Assembly: GCA_946406015.1 (NCBI GenBank)
Contig: CAMJJD010000002.1
Coordinates: 4,787 to 68,786, forward strand
DNA length: 64,000 nucleotides
DNA from: an uncultured Bacteroidales bacterium
GTDB lineage: Bacteria; Bacteroidota; Bacteroidia; Bacteroidales; P3
Reading direction: 5' to 3'
In this document: piece after piece, positions 5,211 to 63,847 of the stretch
How the letters are laid out: each line of letters begins with the position of its first letter
Numbering within the stretch: position 1 is the stretch's first letter
The notes under the pieces: model-generated
Told to the model about the DNA's origin: nothing
Seen by the model: only the letters and a program-made list of their open reading frames with translations
Database searches by the model: none
Position numbers and translations under genes: made by a program

Positions 5211-6239
5211 TTACTGGTTGGCGTACTGCTGCACCTCGTCGTGGAAGAACTCCAGCTGGATACCCGCCTGGCGGAACAGTTCCTCGCTCTCGGCACCGGC
5301 GTGGTACTTGCGCTCGCAGACCACCCGCTTGATGCCACAGTTGATAATCAGCATGGCGCAGGTGCGGCAGGGCGTCATACGGCAGTAGAGCGTGGCACCG
5401 TCGAGGGCGATGCCGCGGCGGGCCGCCTGGCAGATGGCATTCTGCTCGGCATGCACGGTGCGCACACAGTGGGTCGAGATATGGCCGTCGGCGTCGATGG
5501 TCTGGCGGAAAAGGTGCCCCACCTCGTCGCAGTGCGGCAAGCCGGCGGGCGAGCCGACATAGCCGGTCACCAGCAACTGACGGTCCTTGACGATGACGCA
5601 GCCCGAGCGGCCACGGTCGCAGGTGGCGCGGCGGGCGGCGGCGTTGGCCAATTCCATGAAGTATTCGTCCCACGACGGACGGCGGTAGGTAATCTGCTGC
5701 AGCACCTCCTCCACCTGCCGGTTGAGGTCGTCGATGGTGCCCCCGTTGTCAAAGCGGAAGTCGGCCTGCTCGATGCAGTACTTCAGATTCTGCTTGTTGG
5801 GGTCGGTATTGTCCATCTCGCGCTGTTCGTTGGCGATGAAGGTGTCGTAGTCGATGTGGTCGGTCTCCGAGCCGCGCAGCACGGCGCGCTCATAGCGTAC
5901 CCGCGGGTCGGCGTCGACGGCAAAGAGGTAGAAGCTTTGCTTGCCGCGCAGGGCCTGCACTTCGCCAGGGGTGCGCACACTCTCGATGATACAGTTGCAG
6001 CCCGAAGCGGAAGCCTTCTCGTACAGCTGCTCCACAATCCACGACGGCGAATGCTGTGCCCGCAGGTCGTTACCTACGGCAGTCATCGTGTCGCGGTTCA
6101 CCTCCAGCCCGCGGCGCTTGATTTCCTCGGTGAGGAAGGCCCGCACCGAATAGTGCACAAAACCACGGTTCTTGACAAGATAGTCGACGATGGTGCCCTT
6201 GCCGGCACCGAGCGTCCCAGTGATTCCGATTGTGATCAT
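5211..6239 (-). CDS. fusion protein: N-terminal P-loop nucleotide kinase-like domain + C-terminal dCMP deaminase domain
   Basis: Start chosen at MITIGITGTLGAGKGT (Walker A at the extreme N-terminus). The C-terminal half has HAEQNAI and PCRTCAMLI dCMP-deaminase zinc motifs. The longer ORF starts at 6302. Confidence 0.85.
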   Translation of the reverse strand: MITIGITGTLGAGKGTIVDYLVKNRGFVHYSVRAFLTEEIKRRGLEVNRDTMTAVGNDLRAQHSPSWIVEQLYEKASASGCNCIIESVRTPGEVQALRGKQSFYLFAVDADPRVRYERAVLRGSETDHIDYDTFIANEQREMDNTDPNKQNLKYCIEQADFRFDNGGTIDDLNRQVEEVLQQITYRRPSWDEYFMELANAAARRATCDRGRSGCVIVKDRQLLVTGYVGSPAGLPHCDEVGHLFRQTIDADGHISTHCVRTVHAEQNAICQAARRGIALDGATLYCRMTPCRTCAMLIINCGIKRVVCERKYHAGAESEELFRQAGIQLEFFHDEVQQYANQ

Positions 6240-6316
6240 TGTCGTCTTAGTTTCAAAAGGTAACGTCGATCCAGCGTTATTATTGTGCGCCTCGGCCTCC
6301 AAAACGTCCTTTTCGG

Positions 6317-6324
6317 CAAAAATA
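6317..6324 (-). promoter_or_regulatory. -7 promoter box (TATTTTTG on the minus strand) upstream of the kinase-deaminase operon
   Basis: The reverse complement of caaaaata matches TAnnTTTG. Confidence 0.45.
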
Positions 6325-6371
6325 TCTGTATTATATACAATAAAGAGTGGTTTTCCCGCGTTTTAACGCGC

Positions 6372-7610
6372 ATGAGAGTACTGCTGATCGTGGTTGCCGT
6401 GCTGTTGTTGACGGCGGTCGTGGGCGTGATCTGGCTCACCGGCAAGCCGCACGTCACCCCCCTGCTGCCCCCCGACGAGGAGCAGGCGCTGGACGCCCTG
6501 CTGCCTCCCGGCGTGGAACGGGGCAACCACATCACGACCTACGCCAGCCTTGGCGCCATGTACGACACCCTGCTCGCCGACATCGCGGGCGCCCGACAGC
6601 ACATACACCTTCAATTCTTCAAGTTCGAGGACGACGCCACCGCCCACGAGGTGGGCGACGCGCTGGCGGCCAAGGCCGCCGAAGGGGTCGAGGCGCGCCT
6701 GATGTACGACGACTTCGGGTGCCAGCCGTGGAAAGGCTACTACCGCCAGCTGGAGACGCGCGGCGTGGCCACGGCCGGCTTCGGTCGCGTGCGCTGGGCC
6801 TGGGTGCGCAAGACCGACTACTACCGCAACCACCGCAAGTGCGTGGTCGTCGACGGACGCATCGCCTACCTAGGCGGCATCAACATCGCCGACCGGTACC
6901 TGCACGGCCTGCCGTGGGGCTGCTGGCGCGACACGATAATCCGCATCGAAGGCCCGGCTGCCCTGGCGGTGCAGCGGGCTTTTGCCGCCGACTGGCGCCA
7001 TGCGGGCCGGGGGCTGCTGGCCGACCGGGCCTACTTCCCGGCCGTGGCGCCGGCGGGCACCCTGCCACTGCACCTGATCACCTCGGGGCCCATCGGCCAA
7101 GGGCCCACCATCATGCACCACACCATCGGCATGCTCGACGCGGCGCAACGCTACGTCTGGTTCGAGTCGCCCTACTTCATACCGCCCGCTCCCCTGCGCG
7201 AGGCCCTGCTGCGGACCGCGCGCCGCAGCGTCGACGTGCGGGTGCTGCTGCCCCCGCGGGGCGACCGCGGCGAGGTCACCCAGTGGGCATCGAAGAGCTA
7301 CCTGGCCGAGATGATGGACGCCGGTGTACACTTCGGCTTCTACCAGCCGGGCTTCCTGCACTCCAAGCTGGTGGTCAGCGACGACCGCGAAGCCATGGTG
7401 GGCTCGTGCAACATCGACCCCCGCAGCTATCTCCTCTGCCAGGAGGTGGCCGCCGTGGTGGACGATGCCGCCTACGCCGCCGAGTTGCGCGACCTCTTCC
7501 TGGCCGACGAGGCGCAGTCGATCCCCGTCGACCCCGCCCGCTGGGCACAGCGCCCCCTCGGCGAGAAAGCCATGGAGCAGCTGGCACGCCTGGCGGCCTC
7601 CCAGTTATAA
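6372..7610 (+). CDS. cls: cardiolipin synthase (phospholipase D family)
   Basis: It has an N-terminal TM segment and two HKD motifs (HRKCVVVDG...GGINI and HSKLVVSDD...GSCNID). Start moved to MRVLLIVVAVLLL at 6372. Confidence 0.85.
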   Translation: MRVLLIVVAVLLLTAVVGVIWLTGKPHVTPLLPPDEEQALDALLPPGVERGNHITTYASLGAMYDTLLADIAGARQHIHLQFFKFEDDATAHEVGDALAAKAAEGVEARLMYDDFGCQPWKGYYRQLETRGVATAGFGRVRWAWVRKTDYYRNHRKCVVVDGRIAYLGGINIADRYLHGLPWGCWRDTIIRIEGPAALAVQRAFAADWRHAGRGLLADRAYFPAVAPAGTLPLHLITSGPIGQGPTIMHHTIGMLDAAQRYVWFESPYFIPPAPLREALLRTARRSVDVRVLLPPRGDRGEVTQWASKSYLAEMMDAGVHFGFYQPGFLHSKLVVSDDREAMVGSCNIDPRSYLLCQEVAAVVDDAAYAAELRDLFLADEAQSIPVDPARWAQRPLGEKAMEQLARLAASQL

Positions 7611-15490: not shown

Positions 15491-15568
15491 CGATAGTCAA
15501 TAATTATTTCTCCCGTTCTATCTCATACACAAATACTTAACTAAAATACCTCTCACAAACGGGTTTTG

Positions 15569-15576
15569 CAAAGATA
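15569..15576 (-). promoter_or_regulatory. -7 promoter box (TATCTTTG on the minus strand) for the rfbA operon
   Basis: The reverse complement of caaagata matches TAnnTTTG, about 80 nt upstream of the rfbA ATG. Confidence 0.5.
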
Positions 15577-15730
15577 CAATTTTAAAACAAAATAACAAAA
15601 TAAAAAGCGGATTTCCTTCAAAAAGGAGCCTCGCTGCCACAAGACATACGAGTCCGAAATACGAAATTAAATCGTGCACGACCTATCGAAGGCTCACCAC
15701 CCAAGAACCACCATAGCAACACCGGCTCGA

Positions 15731-15803
15731 CTCCGTAGTTTGTCCGTGCGCAGTCGGACCATCCTCGGAGTTGTTACGGAGATACTACGGAGAAACTACG
15801 GAG
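15731..15803. repeat. seven 11-bp-phased CGGAG-type half-sites (2 inverted + 5 direct)
   Basis: ctccgt 15731 and gtccgt 15742 are in inverted orientation. tcggac 15754, tcggag 15765 and acggag 15776, 15787, 15798 are in direct orientation. Confidence 0.8.
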
Positions 15804-15933
15804 ACGCTGCATTCAGAACACTGATTATCATTCGTTTACAGATAAGCAAATCACTATAAATGCTCTTTTTCAGGACTTTAATCCCACAAACGTCCTATTG
15901 CTTCCTTGCGACAAATGACATCGAGAGGGGTGT

Positions 15934-15962: not shown

Positions 15963-16227
15963 GTTAATTACATCGTGCACGATTTATTTACAACCAGTCG
16001 GAAGCCAGACGGTTTTCCCGCCGACTTGCCGACGAAACGGTTTTTGACGACGGAGACGACAGAGGGGACATTTTGCCTTCCGGGCGTCTGCCGGCGCTCT
16101 TTTTTGCAACAGAAAAGCGCTATCGGCATGCGAAAAGAGGTCGCCACAACGCACGGAATATCAATGATATTATGATATACGCGTGCGGAATATTGCTTTT
16201 TTTCATTGCCGATTAGGAAAATAGTCG

Positions 16228-33575: not shown

Positions 33576-33912
33576 TAAATACATCGCGCACGACCAATTC
33601 CTCACCAGGGAAAATTTACCCCCACAACACCACCGCGTCCCCTCCGACCGAACTCCGACTACAGTCGGAGTAGTATCGGAGTAACCTCGGAGTAGCATCG
33701 GAGATGTATCGGAGATGATGCTATCTACCAGCGACTTACATTCTATTTGTATACACACACATGTGATAACCAAGTAGATACATTATCCACAAGACGCCTG
33801 GGGACCATCTTCAGCCACCTGGAGCGTCAGCGACCATCCATCGGGCACGACAGCAACGGAAATAGATTTTGCCCGTTCAAAATCACTAATTAAATCGTGT
33901 ACGATTTATTTC
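33576..33912. promoter_or_regulatory. cassette B: paralogue of cassette A upstream of upxY, with more degenerate bounding repeats
   Basis: Left site taaatacatcgcgcacga (33576-33593). The reverse complement of the right site (33895-33912) is gaaataaatcgtacacga, giving 14/18 matches. The internal layout matches cassette A. A near-consensus -7 box tagattttg lies at 33863-33871. Confidence 0.45.
33642..33714. repeat. seven 11-bp-phased TCGGAG half-sites (2 inverted + 5 direct)
   Basis: ctccga at 33642 and 33653. tcggag at 33665, 33676, 33687, 33698 and 33709. The central perfect palindrome is ctccgac-taca-gtcggag (33653-33670). Confidence 0.85.
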
Positions 33913-34017
33913 CACAACCCCTTCCGACTGTCGTCACAGAAGGGGTGGTTTTCTCCCCGTTGTGGATTATTTCTCGGCAAAACGCGTTTTTTATTTGGTG
34001 GTATAAAATGTTTTTTG

Positions 34018-34025
34018 TATATTTG
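34018..34025 (+). promoter_or_regulatory. -7 promoter box (TATATTTG) for the upxY operon; implies a ~155-nt 5' leader
   Basis: Exact TAnnTTTG. The upxY ATG is at 34189. Confidence 0.55.
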
Positions 34026-34188
34026 CAATTGGAACAATAGTATATAATCACACAATATACTACTGTCTCCCAACGGGTTGCGGCTCCCCTCCTGCGATAG
34101 GAGGGCCCGAAGGTCAGAACACTCCCCGGCTGACAAACCCCGGACGGACTCCATGCACACGCCTGGAGGAGGGGAGAGTATTGGGTTT

Positions 34189-34674
34189 ATGGAAAAACAC
34201 TGGTACGCATTCAAGGTCTATTACAATCACGTGCAGCCGCTTATCTCCGATTGCCTGGAGTCAGGGCTTGAGTTCTTCGCACCGACAGATGTCATCAAGT
34301 CATTGCTTTTTCTGCACTGCAGCGAGACCGACATGGCTCATTTCGTTGTGAACCACCATAGACAAGCATGGGTATACTACAACACCGAGCGCACTCAGGC
34401 TGCCGTGATTCCCGACCGTGAGATGGAAGTGTTCCGTTTCGTGGTCACGGCTGGACGCGACGGACTGGAGGTGCTGGGTGACGACCGACCCGAATACCAT
34501 GAGGGCGACCGCGTGGTGGTCACCGGCGGCCCCTTCAAAGGTGCTGAGGGACACATCAAACGCATCAAACGCGACCGCCGCCTGGTCGTCACCATCCGCG
34601 GCGTCGTCGCCGTCGCCACCACCTACATACACCCCAGCCTGCTCCGCAGAGTCGATGAGTCTATGAGTCATTGA
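34189..34674 (+). CDS. upxY: UpxY-family transcription antiterminator (NusG paralogue)
   Basis: Start at MEKHWYAFKVYY (typical UpxY/NusG NGN start). The C-terminal KOW motif is GDRVVVTGGPFKGAEGHIKRI. This is the first gene of a polysaccharide locus. Confidence 0.85.
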   Translation: MEKHWYAFKVYYNHVQPLISDCLESGLEFFAPTDVIKSLLFLHCSETDMAHFVVNHHRQAWVYYNTERTQAAVIPDREMEVFRFVVTAGRDGLEVLGDDRPEYHEGDRVVVTGGPFKGAEGHIKRIKRDRRLVVTIRGVVAVATTYIHPSLLRRVDESMSH

Positions 34675-34719
34675 GTCTGTGAGTCTATGAGTCTGTGAGT
34701 CAATGAGTGTATAAGTATA
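34656..34719. repeat. 8-bp tandem array TGAGTCNN x8, overlapping the last 6 codons and stop of upxY
   Basis: TGAGTC (or a decayed version of it) starts at 34656, 34664, 34672, 34680, 34688, 34696, 34704 and 34712, in exact 8-bp register. Confidence 0.85.
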
Positions 34720-34740
34720 TGAAACAACACGTTAGATGGC

Positions 34741-35114: not shown

Positions 35115-35153
35115 AAGACTCATAGTCTTATTGTCTTAAAGACTCATAGTCTC
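35115..35153. repeat. two copies of AAGACTCATAGTCT, the inverse complement of the upstream TGAGTC array words
   Basis: aagactcatagtct occurs at 35115 and 35139. AGACTCATAG is the reverse complement of CTATGAGTCT at 34685-34694. Confidence 0.8.
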
Positions 35154-35163
35154 AAGGTCTATC

Positions 35164-36330: not shown

Positions 36331-36505
36331 GAGCCCGCAAGCGGGCGACAGTCATTAGCCGTGGGCGTCAACCCACGGAACAAGAAACAAAGACGACACA
36401 TTGAGAAGCCCTGAAAGGGCGACAGTCATTAGCCGTGGGCGTGAGCCCACGGAAACAAAACAGAAAACTCCCTTTTTAAGAGCCCCGTAGGGGCGACAGA
36501 CAACT
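36331..36505. repeat. 2.5 copies of a 74-bp unit, each made of two hairpins joined by GACAGTCATTAG
   Basis: A 26-bp identical block occurs at 36343-36368 and 36417-36442. Hairpin a lies at 36333-36346, 36408-36420 and 36482-36494. Hairpin b lies at 36359-36378 and 36433-36452. Confidence 0.85.
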
Positions 36506-37937: not shown

Positions 37938-39056
37938 ATGACCGAGATGCAACTGGCATACAACATGCTGAAAGCTGCCCTGGACGGGAGCAAGCCCTGT
38001 CTAGGCATCGAACTGCCCGATACCAACCACTGGTGGAGCCTCTTCCGCCTGCTGCAACGCAACCGTGTGGCGGCACTATGCTATGAGGCGGCAGCGACTG
38101 CAGGAGCACCGCGCACAGTGTTGATGCCCTGGCTGGCCGAACATGAGAAGGCCGTCGACTGGCACCGCCACCAGCGACAGGTGCAGCAGGACATCATCGA
38201 CACCATGGCGCGTCACGGTATCGAGACGCTCGTGCTGAAGGGGACCCGCCTGGCGCAGTACTACCCGAGACCCGAGGAGCGCGAGTTCGGCGATCTGGAC
38301 CTCTACTTCTACGACCGGCACAAGGAAGCCGACCGAGTAGCACGAAATGTGTTGAAGGTAGAAGTCAGCAACGACGCCCACCACCACAGTAAATACAACT
38401 ACCGCGGCGTGACGGTGGAGAGCCACTACGACTTCGTCAACGTGCACTATCCACCCAGCAACCGCCGGTATGAAGCCTTGCTCAAAGAGTTAGTCGGTAA
38501 TAATAGCCTCACCGACTCAAAGTCTCAAAGTCTCAAAGTCTCAAGGACTCAAGGACTCAAAGACTCAACGGCTCAAGGTCAACTTTCAACTTTCGAAATT
38601 CTCTTCCTGCTCCGCCATATGGCCTGCCACTTCGCCTCGAGCCGTATCACCCTGCGCGAACTGACGGATTGGGCACTCACCTGCCAGGCGTTGCAAGGAG
38701 AGGTGGATTGGAAACGGGTACAACAGTCGGTCGACGACTACGGCATGAGGCCGTTTGCCAGCGCTCTGAACCTCATCGCAGAACGACAGCTGGGAATCGT
38801 CCTGCCATTGCAAAATGACAACAATCCGGATATTCTGGCCAACACGGCCTCTCTCGAGCGTGACATCGTCTACGGGAGCCCTGAGACCGACGACAAGAAT
38901 GCAGACGGCCTTGGCCGCCTCACATGGAAGATGCGCCGCTGGAACGCCCTCGCCTGGAAGCGCAAGATGGTCTACAGCGACAGCCCATCGAGCCTGATGC
39001 TGGCCAGCCTCACCTCCCACGCCGAGAAACCCCGCAGCATCCTGCACAAACAATAA
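37938..39056 (+). CDS. uncharacterised nucleotidyltransferase-family protein (NTP_transf_5-like) carrying an in-frame 8-bp-repeat insertion
   Basis: 372 aa. The GDLDLYF motif preceded by LVLKG is typical of the 'uncharacterised nucleotidyltransferase' family. The family call is by recall. Confidence 0.55.
   Translation: MTEMQLAYNMLKAALDGSKPCLGIELPDTNHWWSLFRLLQRNRVAALCYEAAATAGAPRTVLMPWLAEHEKAVDWHRHQRQVQQDIIDTMARHGIETLVLKGTRLAQYYPRPEEREFGDLDLYFYDRHKEADRVARNVLKVEVSNDAHHHSKYNYRGVTVESHYDFVNVHYPPSNRRYEALLKELVGNNSLTDSKSQSLKVSRTQGLKDSTAQGQLSTFEILFLLRHMACHFASSRITLRELTDWALTCQALQGEVDWKRVQQSVDDYGMRPFASALNLIAERQLGIVLPLQNDNNPDILANTASLERDIVYGSPETDDKNADGLGRLTWKMRRWNALAWKRKMVYSDSPSSLMLASLTSHAEKPRSILHKQ
38514..38585 (+). 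repeat. 8-bp tandem array (GACTCAAA/GTCTCAAA type, 8-9 units) inside the nucleotidyltransferase CDS
   Basis: Units start at 38514, 22, 30, 38, 46, 54, 62, 70 (and 78). The array encodes TDSKSQSLKVSRTQGLKDSTAQGQ. Confidence 0.85.
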
Positions 39057-39088
39057 TCTCAATCAAAACTAAAAAAACAAAAGAGCTC

Positions 39089-39199
39089 GAAATCTTGATG
39101 TCTCGACATCTCGATGTTTTTTCGACTTTTTTACTTTTCGTCTTTTAACTCAGCGACTAACACATTAACGCATTTACACATTAACACATTCATATAATG
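39089..39199 (+). repeat. ~14-unit 8-bp-periodic tract running into the wzt start codon; its last 40 bp are 38/40 identical to 62259-62298
   Basis: gaaatctt gatgtctc gacatctc gatgtttt ttcgactt ttttactt ttcgtctt (one 1-nt register slip) tttaactc agcgacta acacatta acgcattt acacatta acacattc atataATG. Confidence 0.8.
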
Positions 39200-57667: not shown

Positions 57668-58020
57668 CAGTATCACCAACATAGTCTCAACTGACTTCGT
57701 GCAATGGCAACTTTATCTGTGGTATGGTGCTACTCCATCCCATCTACCTTAAGCGACCGGGGCATTGAAAGATATTCTCTACCTGTGATGGCCAGAGTTC
57801 CATCGAGAAAACCCGTCCGTAGATCTCACCAGAATTTATATCGCACACGATCTAATACATGTTTTTCTCCCATCAAATGCACATTCCCTCGCATTGCAGA
57901 ACAGCCAGGCCATCCATCTCCGCCAGCCCCCCAACAATAACACAATTGTATTGTAAACCAGCGCAATAGCATATATCAAACATATTAAATCACACAAAGT
58001 CAGCATCATGTCCGCATCAA

Positions 58021-58071
58021 CTCCGCAGATAGTCCGACCACAGTCGGACATACTGCGGTGTAAATACGGAG
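58021..58071. repeat. degenerate third copy (C) of the phased CGGAG module
   Basis: ctccgc 58021, gtccga 58032, tcggac 58044, gcggtg 58055 and acggag 58066 keep the same 11/12/11 spacing. The hairpin gtccgac-caca-gtcggac lies at 58032-58049. Confidence 0.6.
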
Positions 58072-58125
58072 TCGACACGAAATAGGTCGCGAACGACATA
58101 TATCTAATTTCATAGCCACCACACC

Positions 58126-61877: not shown

Positions 61878-61976
61878 AATCAAAACCAAAAGAACAGAAA
61901 AGAAATTCGTTGGATTCGTGTGATTCGTGGTCGTTTATATTTCCATCAGATTTGAAAAGATTGTAAAAGAAAACTC

Positions 61977-62107
61977 TTCGACTTTTTGACCTTTCGACTC
62001 TCCGACTTTTCGTCTCTTTGACTCTGCTACTCGTAGTCTCGTTGTCTCACAGACTCAAGGACTCACAGACTTATAGACTCAGCAACTTTTCGACTCTTCG
62101 TCTCACA
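61977..62107 (+). repeat. 8-bp-phased tract, ~16 units, core G(A/T)CT
   Basis: The core G (or a substitute base) falls at 61980, 88, 96, 62004, 12, 20, (28), 36, 44, 52, 60, 68, 76, (84), 92, 100, in exact register. Confidence 0.85.
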
Positions 62108-62138
62108 TTAATCTCAATCAGATTGTAAAAGAAAACTC

Positions 62139-62298
62139 TTCGACCTTTCGTCTTTTTGACTCTTCGACTCAAAGACTCAATGTCTCAATGTCTCATTGAC
62201 TCACAGACTCATAGTCTTTTTGACTTTTCGACTCTTTAACCTTTTGACTTTTCGACTTACACATTAACGCATTTACACATTAACGCATTCATAAAATG
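62139..62298 (+). repeat. 8-bp-phased tract, 20 units, ending on the ATG of the GT-C gene
   Basis: ttcgacct ttcgtctt tttgactc ttcgactc aaagactc aatgtctc aatgtctc attgactc acagactc atagtctt tttgactt ttcgactc tttaacct tttgactt ttcgactt acacatta acgcattt acacatta acgcattc ataaaATG. Confidence 0.9.
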
Positions 62299-63699
62299 CT
62301 TTCTTTCTTCCCAAAACAAATAGCCACCAAAGGCATCTACCTCTACCTTGGGGCTTTGACTGCCATCTCGCTAGTGTTCTTCCGTCATGCGATGGCCATT
62401 GACTTCCTGATTATGGGAGTGATGTGGGTGGTGGGATTCTTTCTGCTGAGTTCATATTGTAGTCAAAAATGGCAAGAAATACCTCAGAAGAAACTGTTAC
62501 GCAACCTGTTCCTTACAGCTTTGGGGTTGAGATGGGCATGGGCGATCTTCAGCTACTTCTACTACTCTGCAAAAACAGGAATGCCCTTCGAGTTTTCGGC
62601 TGGTGACTCCATCTGGTATTACGAAGAATCGATGGGCAATGTGCACGCTCCCATCAAGGCCATCTGGAATTACCTATTTGTCTCTACCGATTCCATCTCT
62701 GACTCAGGCTACATATTCTACCTCTCGCTACTCTCCAAGGTGACAGGCTACAGTATTTTGTTGCCACGATTGGTCAATAGCATCTTCAGTGCCGCCACTG
62801 TCTTATTGGTTTACCTACTGGCCAAACGCAACATTGGCGAGGAGGGTGGCCGGTTAGCGGCGGTTTTCACCTGTTTCATGCCCAACCTTATCTTCTATTG
62901 TGGCATGCACCTGAAAGAATCTTTCATGCTATTCCTCCTGATAGCCTTTTTGGAGCGTTCCGACTACCTGTTGCGAAGCAAGAAATACAATGTATTTACC
63001 ATCATCATTCCAGTACTGCTCGGTGTCAGCTTGTTTTCGTTTCGTACGGTGTTAGGCGGTGCGGCCGTCTTCTCGTTTGTCACGGCTTTGGTGTTCACCA
63101 ACACCGCTGTCGTGGGACGATGGAAACGGATTATGCTCATTTCATGGGGAGTACTGGCTGTAGTAACATTAACTGGCGGTGTCATCACAACCGAGGTACA
63201 AGCCACCTGGGAAGACCGCGAAAGCAACCAGGATGCCAAAAGATCAATACAGACTGCGAGAGGTAACCAATGGGCTAAGTACGCCACCGGTACCGTCATG
63301 GCACCCATGATGTTCGTCATGCCGTTCCCTACGATGGTGGATGTGGACGAGCAATACAACCAGCAGATGCTCAGCGGCGGAAACTATGTGCGAAACTTCT
63401 TCGGTGGATTTGTGCTCATTGCCGTGTTCAGTGCCATATTCATCACTAAAAACTGGCGCAATCTAAGCCTCATCGGCTCCTTCGTAATCGCCTATCTGGG
63501 TATCATCTCGTCCAGCGGCTTCGCCAACTCGGAGCGATTCCTACTGCCAGCCTTGCCCTGTCTACTTATCATTGCGGCTTACGGGGTGACGCTGCTGAAT
63601 GCAAAGAATTACAAGTTCATAAAAATATGGTACTGGGTGGTGCCAGTGATGGCCTTCGCCTGGGCGTTCTTCAAACTGGGCTCCCGCGGTTTGTTCTAG
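62296..63699 (+). CDS. polytopic GT-C-type membrane glycosyltransferase (ArnT/PMT_2-like)
   Basis: 467 aa with about 11 predicted TM segments. There is an early extracytoplasmic acidic loop (FEFSAGDSIWYYEE) and an LLVYLLAKR region, as in the GT39/GT83 families. Tentative. Confidence 0.55.
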   Translation: MLSFFPKQIATKGIYLYLGALTAISLVFFRHAMAIDFLIMGVMWVVGFFLLSSYCSQKWQEIPQKKLLRNLFLTALGLRWAWAIFSYFYYSAKTGMPFEFSAGDSIWYYEESMGNVHAPIKAIWNYLFVSTDSISDSGYIFYLSLLSKVTGYSILLPRLVNSIFSAATVLLVYLLAKRNIGEEGGRLAAVFTCFMPNLIFYCGMHLKESFMLFLLIAFLERSDYLLRSKKYNVFTIIIPVLLGVSLFSFRTVLGGAAVFSFVTALVFTNTAVVGRWKRIMLISWGVLAVVTLTGGVITTEVQATWEDRESNQDAKRSIQTARGNQWAKYATGTVMAPMMFVMPFPTMVDVDEQYNQQMLSGGNYVRNFFGGFVLIAVFSAIFITKNWRNLSLIGSFVIAYLGIISSSGFANSERFLLPALPCLLIIAAYGVTLLNAKNYKFIKIWYWVVPVMAFAWAFFKLGSRGLF

Positions 63700-63847
63700 C
63701 TAACCGAACTATCCGAAACAAGCCGAACAACTTCTTCTCTAACCGAACTATCCGAAGTAATCCGAATAACTAATTTTCTAACCGAATCACCAGAAGCAAG
63801 CCGAACAACTTCTCCTCTAACCGAATCATACGAAATAATCCTAAATC
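63700..63847 (+). repeat. 39-bp tandem repeat x3.8 (CTAACCGAA... units) between the GT-C stop and the next start codon
   Basis: Units start at 63700, 63739, 63778 and 63817. Each carries 2-3 CCGAA words. Confidence 0.88.

What the first reader, a model, noticed from the sequence alone, without database searches (positions are those of the whole stretch)
33642..33714. Seven strictly 11-bp-phased (T/A)CGGAG half-sites (2 inverted + 5 direct), with the same architecture upstream of two polysaccharide loci 18 kb apart
Seen directly. In cassette B, CTCCGA starts at 33642 and 33653, and TCGGAG starts at 33665, 33676, 33687, 33698 and 33709. In cassette A, CTCCGT starts at 15731, GTCCGT at 15742, TCGGAC at 15754, TCGGAG at 15765 and ACGGAG at 15776, 15787 and 15798. 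Both have identical 11/12/11/11/11/11 spacing and the same 2+5 orientation pattern, and both lie about 50 bp from the left palindromic site. A decayed copy keeps the same spacing at 58021-58071. The central element is a hairpin or palindrome whose outer pair covaries between copies: Ctccgac-taca-gtcggaG in B versus Gtccgac-caca-gtcggaC in C. An 11-bp unit with 6-7 conserved positions plus 4-5 variable ones is the classical geometry of head-to-tail winged-helix (OmpR/PhoB-type) regulator arrays. It would also suit a recombinational enhancer inside an invertible segment. As far as I know, such a phased array is not part of the described Bacteroides CPS control scheme (invertible promoters, UpxY, UpxZ).
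Basis: partly seen in the sequence, partly recalled or inferred. Interest (0 to 1): 0.78.

Follow-up and report, generated by a model that had tools for sequence, protein, structure and literature searches.

The report
Helically phased CGGAG-repeat regulatory cassette
The 11-bp-spaced (T/A)CGGAG repeats are real, conserved protein-binding-type sites that sit inside a previously undescribed ~250-330-bp DNA cassette whose parts are all kept in step with the DNA helix; it does not look like a flipping (invertible) promoter and it is not specific to polysaccharide genes.

Summary
Observation confirmed. Each array has an eighth, weaker unit.

The third copy (58010-58071) is not decayed. It is a complete cassette in the opposite orientation.

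The hexamers did not vary at all among orthologues, while the spacers did (0/84 vs 14/62 positions, p=2e-6).

Each array lies between two ~24-bp palindromes, TCG-YRYR-CGA with AT-rich flanks. In 28 non-redundant cassettes from rumen Bacteroidales, every internal distance falls on an ~11.2-bp ladder. That period matches the in-vivo helical repeat seen in DNA looping.

The cassette is not an inverton, for three reasons:
- About 34 contigs, from 30 or more separate assemblies, all show one orientation.
- The partner palindromes often differ at their core.
- Consensus Bacteroidetes promoters lie outside the cassette and point outward.

Neighbouring genes include rpsL, nrd, uvrD and tex, so the element is not polysaccharide-specific.

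In six phage-like contigs the same units end exactly 15 nt before a -7 box. This supports reading the unit as a transcription-factor site.

Best reading: an oligomer-binding array within a looped or wrapped regulatory nucleoprotein element. The binding proteins are unknown, and I found no description of it in the literature.

The parts
33583..33594 (.). Cassette B, near palindromic site P1 (acATCGCGCACGAcc; core TCGCGCACGA 33584-33593)
   Evidence: site family defined
33631..33714 (+). Cassette B array. Three left-arm units: CACCGC 33631, CTCCGA 33642 and 33653. Dyad centre at 33661/33662. Five right-arm units: TCGGAG 33665, 33676, 33687, 33698, 33709.
   Evidence: hexamers invariant in three lineages
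33719..33773 (.). Cassette B, two degenerate copies of the P2 palindrome family CTGATWATCAG (gctatctaccag 33719-33730; gtgataaccaa 33763-33773), about 44 bp apart, with an AT-rich stretch between them
33894..33905 (.). Cassette B, far palindromic site P1 (aATCGTGTACGAt; core 33895-33904). It lies 311 bp centre-to-centre from the near site. Its core differs from the partner (central GC vs AC).
33994..34026 (+). Consensus Bacteroidetes promoter TTTG-N20-TATATTTGC of the UpxY-led operon. It lies outside the cassette, about 119 bp beyond the centre of the far P1.
   Evidence: (5 exact matches in the window vs 0.17 expected)
15671..15682 (.). Cassette A, near P1 (ATCGTGCACGAc)
15720..15803 (+). Cassette A array. 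Left arm: CACCGG 15720, CTCCGT 15731, GTCCGT 15742. Dyad at 15750/15751. Right arm: TCGGAC 15754, TCGGAG 15765, ACGGAG 15776, 15787, 15798.
   Evidence: all hexamers invariant in 10 distinct orthologous sequences
15821..15831 (.). Cassette A, P2 palindrome-like motif ctgattatcat (followed by tcgtttac, which resembles an IHF site). Conserved in orthologues.
15972..15983 (.). Cassette A, far P1 (ATCGTGCACGAT), 301 bp from the near site. The 80 bp inside it are highly conserved.
15568..15599 (-). Consensus promoter of the leftward rmlA-rmlC-rmlD-ugd operon. It lies outside cassette A and points away from it; the near P1 is at about -114.
57840..57851 (.). Cassette C, far P1 (ATCGCACACGAt; core 57841-57850)
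58010..58071 (-). Cassette C array, 3+3 units: GTCCGC 58010, CTCCGC 58021, GTCCGA 58032, dyad at 58040/58041, TCGGAC 58044, GCGGTG 58055, ACGGAG 58066. The cassette is flipped relative to A and B.
58087..58096 (.). Cassette C, near P1-like site (ataggTCGCGAACGAcat), one base off the YRYR pattern. It lies 51 bp from the dyad, 246 bp from the other P1, and 29 nt before the ATG of the GT2 gene (58126).
   Evidence: sequence; profile match 58104-58005 on the minus strand, E=4.5e-17

Best explanation
The (T/A)CGGAG units are binding sites for a sequence-specific DNA-binding protein. One protomer occupies each 11-bp unit, as two opposed head-to-tail arms of 6-10 units in total that meet at a palindromic centre (GTCCGAC-n4-GTCGGAC).

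The array is one module of a fixed composite cis-element of 243-334 bp. The element is bounded by two ~24-bp dyad-symmetric operator-like sites, here called P1 (WTWNR-TCG-YRYR-CGA-YNWAW). Longer versions also carry one or two copies of a second palindrome, P2 (CTGATWATCAG).

All modules are held at constant rotational phase with a period of about 11.2 bp. This implies that the two P1 sites are brought together, and the intervening DNA is looped or wrapped by the array-bound oligomer. The resulting static nucleoprotein complex sits just upstream of, or between, outward-facing promoters. In the window these are P_rmlA, P_wza and P_upxY, and in one case (C) the cassette lies inside an operon. I infer that the complex modulates those promoters or blocks transcription passing through.

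Shown: the anatomy, purifying selection on the hexamers, the helical quantisation, the absence of inversion, promoters lying outside, and the dispersed distribution.

Inferred: protein binding, looping, and any regulatory outcome. The proteins are unknown.
For: - Hexamers are invariant while spacers vary in orthologues: 0/84 vs 14/62 variable positions, Fisher p=2.4e-6. The same holds across 10 distinct A orthologues.
- Unit logo from 164 units: W C G G A S, with the remaining positions near-random.
- In 28 non-redundant cassettes, P1-to-dyad, dyad-to-P1 and P1-to-P1 distances are periodic at about 11.2 bp (Rayleigh R 0.96, 0.76, 0.72-0.79). P1-to-P1 lengths are 243/244, 254, 266/267, 278, 288-291, 300/301, 311-313, 323 and 334. 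None of 20,000 random sets reached this periodicity, even when only distinct lengths were used.
- Cassettes with the same unit count differ in length by about 11-bp steps (A 301, B 311, L122 323). A and B differ through separate 21-bp and 10-bp indels. Unit duplication therefore does not explain the ladder.
- A period of 11 bp or more is what in-vivo looping experiments give (PMC3001091).
- P1 occurs in the window only at cassette ends. A profile built only from metagenome cassettes hits the window at exactly A, B and C.
- Consensus -7 boxes around cassettes face outward 26 times and inward 2 times. P_rmlA and P_upxY are two of only five exact consensus promoters in the 64 kb.
- In six loci, 3-4 direct units end exactly 15 nt before TAnnTTTG, which shows the unit working at a promoter.
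Against: - No protein has been identified, and nothing shows binding or looping.
- In the window the arrays are 150-400 bp from the consensus promoters, which is far for direct activation.
- Cassette orientation relative to the nearest promoter is not constant: the near side faces P_rmlA, while the far side faces P_upxY.
- One cassette (L192) lies between convergent genes with no promoter.
- In L140/L218, a P1 lies between a stop codon and its terminator.
- Neighbouring genes have no common function. This fits an architectural or selfish dispersed element as well as it fits a regulon.
- Related cassettes are not independent samples, so the p-values are optimistic.
- Promoters were predicted by consensus only.
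Confidence: 0.5

Rival explanations
1. Dispersed selfish or semi-selfish repeat (MITE-, REP- or BIME-like). The cassette is a non-autonomous mobile or repeated extragenic element. The P1 palindromes are its ends and the CGGAG units are subterminal binding sites for a transposase or other element-encoded protein. Any effect on neighbouring genes is incidental.
For: - Many copies lie in intergenic regions next to unrelated genes: S12/S7, RNR, UvrD, Tex, MiaA, peptidases and T9SS cargo.
- There are three copies within 64 kb.
- One copy lies between convergent genes (L192).
- The cassette interior diverges faster than the flanking non-coding DNA (83-85% vs 92-97% identity).
- Related symmetric arrays without P1 are multi-copy in single MAGs such as RUG649.
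- Precedent in Bacteroidales: the BrickBuilt MITE, which has internal tandem repeats (PMC4596501).
- The same unit occurs in phage-like contigs that encode an integrase and SSB.
Against: - No target-site duplications are visible at the ends.
- Each end is a complete palindrome rather than half of a terminal inverted repeat.
- Cassettes A and B are present at the same position in every orthologous locus, down to 83% flank identity, with no empty sites.
- Copies within one genome are old and diverged, yet they keep the hexamers and the 11.2-bp register. This indicates selection on a host function.
- No transposase is associated with them.
- No match in the plasmid or phage databases.
Confidence: 0.17
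2. General chromosome-architecture or insulator element. The element binds nucleoid-associated or topology-handling proteins (IHF/HU-like proteins or gyrase, as with E. coli BIME/RIP elements), or it acts as a roadblock separating transcription units. It is not a gene-specific regulator.
For: - Neighbouring genes have no common function.
- There is no fixed orientation relative to promoters.
- Cassette C lies inside an operon, and L192 lies between convergent genes.
- An IHF-like/P2 motif sits mid-cassette.
- The whole element is built on the in-vivo helical repeat.
Against: - The W-CGGA-S hexamers and the P1 half-sites are highly specific and strictly conserved. This points to dedicated sequence-specific proteins rather than generic nucleoid proteins.
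- There is a strong excess of outward-facing promoters next to the cassettes (26:2).
- The P1-to-promoter distance shows weak phasing.
- The family-P promoters use the same unit at -33.
Confidence: 0.15
3. Phase-variable invertible segment. The two palindromes are recombinase crossover sites, and the phased array is a recombinational enhancer or accessory (Xis/Cox/Lrp-like) platform that helps synapse sites only about 300 bp apart.
For: - Paired palindromic sites 243-334 bp apart lie upstream of UpxY-type polysaccharide operons, as in Bacteroides invertons (PMC8748976 and PMC11685472).
- Strict helical phasing and an IHF-like motif would suit a small synaptic complex such as the 314-bp fim switch (comparison from my own knowledge).
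Against: - Cassette B has the same orientation in the window, 4 JGI contigs and 10 ENA/Logan assemblies.
- Cassette A has the same orientation in the window, L194 and 19 assemblies.
- Eight redundant metagenome groups show no flip.
- The central YRYR, including the central dinucleotide, differs between partner sites in about half of cassettes. Examples are B (GC vs AC) and one lineage of A. Such a difference would block strand exchange.
- Exact consensus promoters lie outside the segment.
- No recombinase gene was found among the window ORFs examined.
Confidence: 0.05
4. Simple response-regulator (OmpR/PhoB/SARP-type) array that directly activates a promoter immediately downstream of the last TCGGAG inside the cassette. 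The palindromes would be unrelated.
For: - The 11-bp unit has 6 conserved plus 5 variable positions.
- A conserved segment follows the array (GATGCTG..., then a T-rich TTATTTATAC-like stretch).
- In the family-P loci the array does abut a -7 box.
Against: - There is no TAnnTTTG at a fixed distance after the array in A, B, C or most other cassettes.
- The units form two opposed arms, and the dyad shifts position (2+5, 5+1, 5+4) while the array as a whole stays in place.
- P1 and the array co-occur exclusively and in register. P1 is therefore not unrelated.
Confidence: 0.1

Closest known systems
DNA-looping operator pairs with an architectural protein (lac O1/O2/O3, gal OE/OI with HU, araO2/I)
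   Same: Both have two dyad-symmetric sites a few hundred bp apart or less. Their separation is constrained to a ladder with the in-vivo helical repeat of about 11 bp or more (PMC3001091). Both may have a bend-protein site between the operators, and a promoter next to the loop.
   Different: Here a 6-10-unit phased array fills a third of the loop. The consensus promoters lie 45-125 bp outside the loop rather than inside it or at an operator. The element is multi-copy and dispersed. The proteins are unknown.
OmpR/PhoB-family and SARP direct-repeat arrays (pho boxes; Streptomyces PhoP 11-nt direct-repeat units; SARP heptamers at 11-nt spacing)
   Same: The 11-bp unit consists of a 6-7-bp conserved core plus a variable spacer, in several consecutive units on one face of the helix. 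In the six family-P loci the proximal unit replaces the -33 element at a fixed 15 nt from the -7 box.
   Different: In the cassettes the units form two opposed arms around a palindrome. They are not next to a promoter and are locked in phase with distant palindromic sites. No response regulator is linked. The comparison with the named families rests on my own knowledge.
E. coli oriC DnaA-oligomerisation regions
   Same: Two sets of same-orientation sites face each other and support head-to-tail oligomers, with an IHF site helping to bend the DNA (PMC10380432).
   Different: There is no DnaA-box sequence; TTATCCACA-like matches are at chance level. The element is multi-copy and lies in promoter regions, not at an origin.
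Iteron arrays bound by ribbon-helix-helix or winged-helix filament formers (ParR-parC 11-bp iterons, omega heptads in mixed orientation, P2 Cox / 186 Apl / lambda Xis)
   Same: Short units repeat about once per helical turn. They are bound cooperatively to wrap or bend DNA, and mixed orientations are tolerated. This comparison is from my own knowledge.
   Different: The cassettes are chromosomal and dispersed, with no par genes or att sites. No cognate small protein gene is adjacent.
BrickBuilt MITE of Porphyromonas gingivalis and E. coli BIME/RIP elements
   Same: These are intergenic, multi-copy mosaic elements in Bacteroidales (BrickBuilt). They have inverted ends and internal tandem repeats, often lie near T9SS cargo genes, and may affect neighbouring transcription (PMC4596501).
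   Different: BrickBuilt has 23-nt perfect-type repeats in variable number, IS5-like terminal repeats and internal promoters. Here the repeats are 11-bp units with only 6 conserved bases, the ends are full palindromes, no target-site duplication was seen, positions are orthologously stable, and overall length is helically quantised.
Bacteroides capsular-polysaccharide invertons (Mpi/Tsr recombinases, UpxY/UpxZ)
   Same: Both lie upstream of a UpxY-type NusG paralogue operon and have paired inverted sites about 200-300 bp apart.
   Different: The promoter is outside the segment, no orientation polymorphism was found, and partner cores are unequal. The element also occurs next to housekeeping genes.

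Membership tests
Invertible promoter (inverton) of Bacteroidales | Both orientations of the segment occur in populations or assemblies | tested here: not met
   B: the window, 4 JGI contigs and 10 ENA/Logan assemblies all share one orientation. A: the window, L194 and 19 assemblies all share one orientation. Eight redundant metagenome groups show no flip.
Invertible promoter (inverton) of Bacteroidales | Partner inverted repeats are identical across the crossover core | tested here: not met
   The central YRYR and the central dinucleotide differ in about half of 28 cassettes. In B the cores are TCGCGCACGA vs TCGTACACGA. One lineage of A changed TGCA to CACA at one site only.
Invertible promoter (inverton) of Bacteroidales | The promoter lies inside the invertible segment | tested here: not met
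   Exact consensus promoters lie outside, at 15568-15599(-) and 33994-34026(+). Across all cassettes there are 26 outward-facing -7 boxes outside and almost none inside. This is consensus prediction only, with no TSS data.
Invertible promoter (inverton) of Bacteroidales | A site-specific recombinase acts on the repeats | tested here: inconclusive
   No recombinase domain was found in the 20 window ORFs scanned. A global invertase could be encoded elsewhere.
OmpR/PhoB/SARP-type direct-repeat array | 11-bp unit with a 6-7-bp conserved core and a variable spacer | tested here: met
   Logo of 164 units: W C G G A S, with information content 0.8-1.95 bits; the other five positions are at or below 0.46 bits.
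OmpR/PhoB/SARP-type direct-repeat array | All units head-to-tail in one orientation | tested here: not met
   There are two opposed arms around a dyad (3+5, 5+1, 5+4, 5+5 and others).
OmpR/PhoB/SARP-type direct-repeat array | Array abuts or overlaps the -35/-33 region of the regulated promoter | tested here: not met
   In the window the arrays are 150 bp or more from the consensus promoters, and no fixed -7 box follows the arrays. The feature is met only in the six family-P loci outside the window.
OmpR/PhoB/SARP-type direct-repeat array | Bound by a winged-helix response regulator | not testable with these tools
   No candidate gene is linked to the cassettes.
DNA-looping operator pair | Two dyad-symmetric operator sites | tested here: met
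   Each end is a ~24-bp palindrome, WTWNR-TCG-YRYR-CGA-YNWAW. In the window the sites are exclusive to cassette ends.
DNA-looping operator pair | Operator spacing restricted to one rotational phase, with the in-vivo helical repeat | tested here: met
   The period is about 11.2 bp, R=0.72-0.79, with 0 of 20,000 random sets as periodic. PMC3001091 gives the ~11 bp/turn in-vivo value.
DNA-looping operator pair | A multimeric protein bridges the two sites | not testable with these tools
   The protein is unknown.
MITE / dispersed repeat | Multi-copy and intergenic | tested here: met
   There are 3 copies in the window. There are 25 two-site plus 7 one-site cassettes among about 109 non-redundant metagenome hits.
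MITE / dispersed repeat | Target-site duplication and presence/absence polymorphism | tested here: not met
   No direct repeats flank the ends (by inspection). A and B are present at all orthologous loci examined.
oriC-type DnaA arrays | DnaA-box sequence | tested here: not met
   TTATCCACA with up to 1 mismatch: 13 matches vs 12 expected.
Known RNA family | Rfam covariance-model match over the array | tested here: not met
   Only a tRNA and Acido-Lenti-1, both elsewhere in the window. The folds of A and B differ.

The most novel reading that the evidence does not exclude
The array belongs to a previously undescribed, widespread family of helically quantised nucleoprotein cassettes in rumen Bacteroidales: two P1 operators, an opposed-arm W-CGGA-S oligomer array, and sometimes P2 sites. 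The cassettes would be built by one or more unknown DNA-binding proteins that form a loop or wrap upstream of many promoters. That would add a new layer of control or insulation to polysaccharide loci and other operons. The 11-bp unit is also used as a -33 substitute by phage-like elements. Similarly built symmetric arrays exist in Verrucomicrobiota.
Probability: 0.5. Interest if true: 0.78.

Novelty: new variant of a known kind. Interest (0 to 1): 0.64.

Why it matters
Control of capsular and exopolysaccharide loci in Bacteroidales is currently explained by invertible promoters, UpxY antitermination and UpxZ cross-inhibition. Here, three polysaccharide-locus regulatory regions in one rumen Bacteroidales genome instead carry a static, elaborate cis-element.

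The element's length and internal spacing have been held on an ~11.2-bp ladder through much sequence divergence. That is a natural-variation counterpart of the classic helical-phasing experiments. It implies a looped or wrapped protein-DNA machine that has not been described.

The element is sharply defined: hexamer units, P1 and P2. This makes the unknown binding proteins directly fishable by pull-down or DAP-seq. It also makes the phasing hypothesis directly testable with 5-bp versus 11-bp insertions.

There is also a practical caution. Paired inverted sites upstream of UpxY operons should not be annotated as invertons without read-level evidence.

Tried and rejected
- Rfam scan of the window: no family over the arrays.
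- RNA folding of the arrays: z-scores of about -3, as expected for inverted repeats, but A and B give different folds. RNA cannot explain the phasing to the distant P1 sites, so an RNA element was rejected.
- DnaA boxes: a perfect TTATCCACA sits at 33783, but such matches are at chance frequency and it is absent from A.
- Viral contigs: only microsatellite-like perfect 11-bp repeats, no cassette. The family-P pattern was absent from IMG/VR.
- BLASTN of cassette B against plasmids and phages: no match.
- Exact-protein look-ups of the window's UpxY and the 23S-IVP-like protein: not on record. I used close homologues instead.
- Search for orientation variants: none found.
- Target-site duplications at cassette ends: none seen.
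- An RHH-looking ORF in the phage-like contig L144, considered as a candidate unit-binding protein: no homologue in any other locus or in the window. Not pursued.
- Many genome-scan hits in high-GC actinobacteria and similar organisms are perfect tandem repeats or coding repeats unrelated to this element.
- The simple sigma-70 promoter scan does not apply to Bacteroidetes and was ignored.
Full report
**1. The observation**

- In B, CTCCGA starts at 33642 and 33653, and TCGGAG at 33665, 33676, 33687, 33698 and 33709.
- In A the units are CTCCGT 15731, GTCCGT 15742, TCGGAC 15754, TCGGAG 15765 and ACGGAG 15776, 15787 and 15798.
- Both show 11/12/11/11/11/11 spacing.

CGGAG and CTCCG are not over-represented in the window (51 and 52 copies). 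They cluster only at these two places. Tandem Repeats Finder reports the 11-bp period at all three sites.

One step to the left of each array lies a further weaker unit (CACCGG 15720; CACCGC 33631). The arrays are therefore 3+5.

The window is from an uncultured rumen Bacteroidales. It has 53% GC, its closest RmlA is annotated 'Bacteroidales bacterium', and the matching samples are rumen metagenomes.

**2. Context in the window**

- A lies between the leftward rmlA-rmlC-rmlD-ugd-capD-like operon and a rightward Wza-like/Wzz operon.
- B lies between an M49 peptidase gene with its terminator and a UpxY-type KOW protein that leads a sugar-transferase locus.
- C lies between two GT2 genes.

Each array lies between two copies of a palindromic site I call P1. 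ATCGYRYACGA occurs only at 15671, 15972, 33583, 33894 and 57840 (7 matches vs 0.3 expected). The broader core TCGYRYRCGA adds just one unrelated hit.

**3. Relatives elsewhere**

Many were perfect microsatellites in high-GC organisms. A large share were rumen or gut Bacteroidales MAGs, and several were Verrucomicrobiota, with conserved hexamers, variable spacers and two opposed arms.

L089 (MAG RGIG4772) has the complete window-type cassette, including both P1 sites.

A metagenome scan for the dyad plus two units also hit its limit at 120 stretches, mostly from rumen samples. A rough sorting of about 109 non-redundant hits gave:

| Class | Count |
|---|---|
| Cassettes with two P1 sites | 25 |
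| Cassettes with one P1 site (contig end or degenerate partner) | 7 |
| Symmetric arrays without P1 | about 28 |
| Arrays abutting a -7 box ('family P') | 6 |
| Simple tandem repeats or other | remainder |

**4. Anatomy of the cassette**

The unit is W-C-G-G-A-S plus five near-random positions. Arrays have 6-10 units, with a mean of 7.5.

The units always form two opposed arms around GTCCGAC-n4-GTCGGAC. The position of the dyad within the array varies (3+5, 1+5, 5+1, 5+4, 5+5), while the array as a whole stays next to one P1.

Each P1 is itself a ~24-bp palindrome: AT-rich flank, TCG, YRYR, CGA, AT-rich flank.

Longer cassettes carry one or two copies of a second palindrome, CTGATWATCAG. This overlaps an IHF-like WATCARnnnnTTR pattern. 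The copies are about 44 bp apart, with an AT-rich stretch between them.

A profile built only from the metagenome cassettes finds exactly three places in the window:

| Cassette | Strand | E-value |
|---|---|---|
| A | + | 3e-33 |
| B | + | 2e-29 |
| C | - | 4.5e-17 |

C has a P1-like site, TCGCGAACGA, at 58087-58096, 15 nt after its last unit. It is therefore a complete cassette in flipped orientation, not a decayed copy.

**5. Selection on the hexamers**

At locus B three lineages (window, L240 type, L175 type) keep all seven strong hexamers while the spacers change. The same holds at locus A. Combined, 0/84 hexamer positions vary against 14/62 spacer positions (Fisher p=2.4e-6).

Ten distinct orthologous versions of A keep several features invariant:

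- every hexamer;
- the central gcgcag;
- 'ccatagcaacacc';
- the P2 motif;
- the 80 bp next to the far P1.

The cassette interior as a whole diverges faster (83-85% identity) than the flanking non-coding DNA (92-97%).

**6. Helical quantisation**

In 28 non-redundant two-site cassettes, the three distances all fall on ladders with a best period of 11.2-11.5 bp. The Rayleigh R values below are at 11.2 bp; the P1-to-P1 peak is 0.79 at 11.6 bp.

| Distance | Rayleigh R |
|---|---|
| Near P1 to dyad | 0.96 |
| Dyad to far P1 | 0.76 |
| P1 to P1 | 0.72 |

P1-to-P1 lengths are 243/244, 254, 266/267, 278, 288-291, 300/301, 311-313, 323 and 334. None of 20,000 random length sets was as periodic, even when each distinct length was counted once.

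The fractional phases are constant. P1-to-dyad is about x.5 turns and dyad-to-far-P1 is about x.3 turns. C fits as well (51, 195 and 246 bp).

The ladder is not a by-product of unit number. A, B and L122 all have 3+5 units yet measure 301, 311 and 323 bp. A and B differ through separate 21-bp and 10-bp indels outside the array.

A period of 11 bp or more, rather than 10.5, is what in-vivo loop-phasing experiments give (PMC3001091). I take this as strong evidence that the two P1 sites, the array and the P2 sites must face defined directions relative to one another. In other words, the cassette works as one folded nucleoprotein object on double-stranded DNA. Cassettes are related to one another, so the p-values are optimistic. 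Even so, nine length classes on one ladder are hard to obtain otherwise.

**7. Not an inverton**

Three lines of evidence argue against invertibility.

(a) *Orientation.* Using close homologues of UpxY (P0001) and RmlA (P0122, P0123), I retrieved independent assemblies.

- Ten carry cassette B, all in the window's orientation.
- Nineteen span cassette A, all in the window's orientation.
- The JGI contigs agree, and none of eight redundant metagenome groups shows a flip.

(b) *Cores.* The central YRYR, including the central dinucleotide, differs between the two partner sites in about half of cassettes, including B (GC vs AC). Within the A lineage, one site changed TGCA to CACA while its partner did not. 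Either a serine or a tyrosine recombinase would need identity there. Free variation restricted to alternating pyrimidine-purine fits an uncontacted spacer in an operator.

(c) *Promoters.* The window has only five exact matches to TTTG-N19-21-TAnnTTTGY (0.17 expected). Two of them flank cassettes and point away from them: 15568-15599(-), which serves rmlA, and 33994-34026(+), which serves UpxY. The UpxY promoter is followed by a leader hairpin. Around all cassettes, -7 boxes outside face outward 26 times and inward twice, and hardly any lie inside.

**8. Not polysaccharide-specific**

All three window copies lie in polysaccharide loci. Elsewhere, cassette neighbours include ribosomal proteins S12/S7, ribonucleotide reductase, UvrD, Tex, MiaA, an ECF sigma factor, M13, M16 and C69 peptidases, T9SS cargo and a DNA methylase.

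- Divergent and tandem contexts dominate.
- One cassette (L192) lies between convergent genes with no promoter.
- In L140/L218, a P1 lies between a stop codon and its terminator hairpin.

**9. Evidence that the unit works at promoters**

In six contigs (L139, L144, L148, L203, L214, L230), three or four direct units end exactly 15 nt before a TAnnTTTG box. The proximal hexamer therefore occupies the position of the -33 element. The arrangement lies upstream of a gene for a DUF6266 / InlB-B-repeat protein. This is the geometry of activators that replace the -35 element.

These contigs look like small mobile or phage-like elements, encoding SSB, a XerC/D-like integrase and a non-specific endonuclease. 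The distance from P1 to the outward -7 boxes is also weakly periodic (R=0.52-0.63, n=21). That test was post hoc.

**10. Interpretation**

The best-supported reading is as follows.

- The array binds an oligomerising, sequence-specific protein, with one protomer per helical turn.
- The protein forms two arms meeting head-to-head.
- Together with proteins on P1 (and on P2 where present), it forms a looped or wrapped complex.
- The complex lies upstream of, between, or (in C) within transcription units.
- I infer that it tunes the outward promoters or blocks passing polymerase.

Protein binding, looping and the regulatory outcome are all inferred. I put this reading at about 0.5.

The rivals are:

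- a dispersed MITE-, REP- or BIME-like element (0.17);
- a general architectural or insulator element (0.15);
- a plain response-regulator array driving an internal promoter (0.10);
- an inverton with an accessory array (0.05).

**11. Comparison with known systems**

- *Loop phasing:* closest to the lac, gal and ara operator pairs.
- *Unit design:* closest to pho boxes, PhoP direct-repeat units and SARP repeats.
- *Opposed head-to-tail arms plus a bend site:* closest to the DnaA-oligomerisation regions of oriC (PMC10380432).
- *One-turn iterons in mixed orientation:* closest to ParR-parC, omega, Cox and Apl arrays (from my own knowledge).
- *Dispersed mosaic elements in Bacteroidales:* closest to BrickBuilt (PMC4596501).

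The cassette fails at least one defining test for membership of each of these families (see the membership table). I found no description of it in the literature searched.

**12. Limits**

- My ORF calling in the loci was crude, and several long ORFs were antisense artefacts. Neighbours that matter were confirmed with Pfam.
- Promoters are consensus predictions.
- There are no expression, binding or read-level data.

Noticed in passing
window 34649-34722, 35115-35160, 38514-38594, 39086-39190, 61973-62289: Long arrays of 8-bp-period GAGTC/GACTC units (for example GAGTCTAT x9, and more than 30 units before the gene at 62296) fill intergenic gaps inside the polysaccharide loci. This is a second, different phased repeat system in the same loci.
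   Followed up: no
window 36407-36452 (-): Rfam Acido-Lenti-1 RNA match (55.9 bits, E=7e-10) between the sugar-transferase gene and the next gene of locus B.
   Followed up: no
window 63700-63825: A 39-bp tandem repeat, 3.2 copies (CTAACCGAACTATCCGAAGCAAGCCGAACAACTTCTTCT), right after the gene ending at 63699.
   Followed up: no
L139, L144, L148, L203, L214, L230 (e.g. L144 1296-1323, L203 1255-1282): Three or four direct CTCCGA-type units end exactly 15 nt before a TAnnTTTG -7 box. They lie upstream of a DUF6266 / InlB-B-repeat gene in small phage-like or mobile contigs that also encode SSB, a XerC/D-like integrase and a non-specific endonuclease. L144 also has an RHH-looking 92-aa ORF (6103-6381).
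   Followed up: partly
L010, L016, L025, L028, L033, L038, L045, L090, L092 (Verrucomicrobiota MAGs): Multi-copy symmetric arrays of about 4+4 units of ACGGAGGnnnn around a ~20-bp centre. The construction principle is the same, in another phylum.
   Followed up: no
L035, L053, L066, L076, L101 (RUG649) and about 25 metagenome loci (e.g. L127, L135, L155, L208, L211): Symmetric CTCCG/CGGAG arrays with G-rich spacers and a conserved centre, ccaaaaaccgttaaacaaccggtgaacag, which is itself made of decayed 11-bp units. They lack P1 sites. Some lie between convergent genes and others between divergent consensus promoters.
   Followed up: partly
L243, L245, L247, L248 (contig starts correspond to window ~33643-33686): Independent metagenome assemblies of the window's species break inside the array. 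The break is repeat-induced, not at the palindromes.
   Followed up: partly
L140 and L218 (orthologous locus): The same genomic position carries structurally different cassettes (1+5 units and 193 bp vs 5+3 units and 269 bp). The terminator hairpin of the adjacent C69 peptidase gene lies inside the cassette, and L140 has a third P1 at +442.
   Followed up: no
window 33783-33791 and 33961-33969: A perfect DnaA box, TTATCCACA, lies inside cassette B, and a one-mismatch copy in inverted orientation lies 170 bp away. Box frequency across the window is at chance level, and A has none.
   Followed up: yes
window 34084-34105: A GC-rich hairpin, cccctcc-tgcgata-ggaggg, lies in the predicted UpxY leader about 55-70 nt after the predicted start. 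It may be an ops/pause-hairpin-like element of the kind described for Bacteroides UpxY.
   Followed up: no
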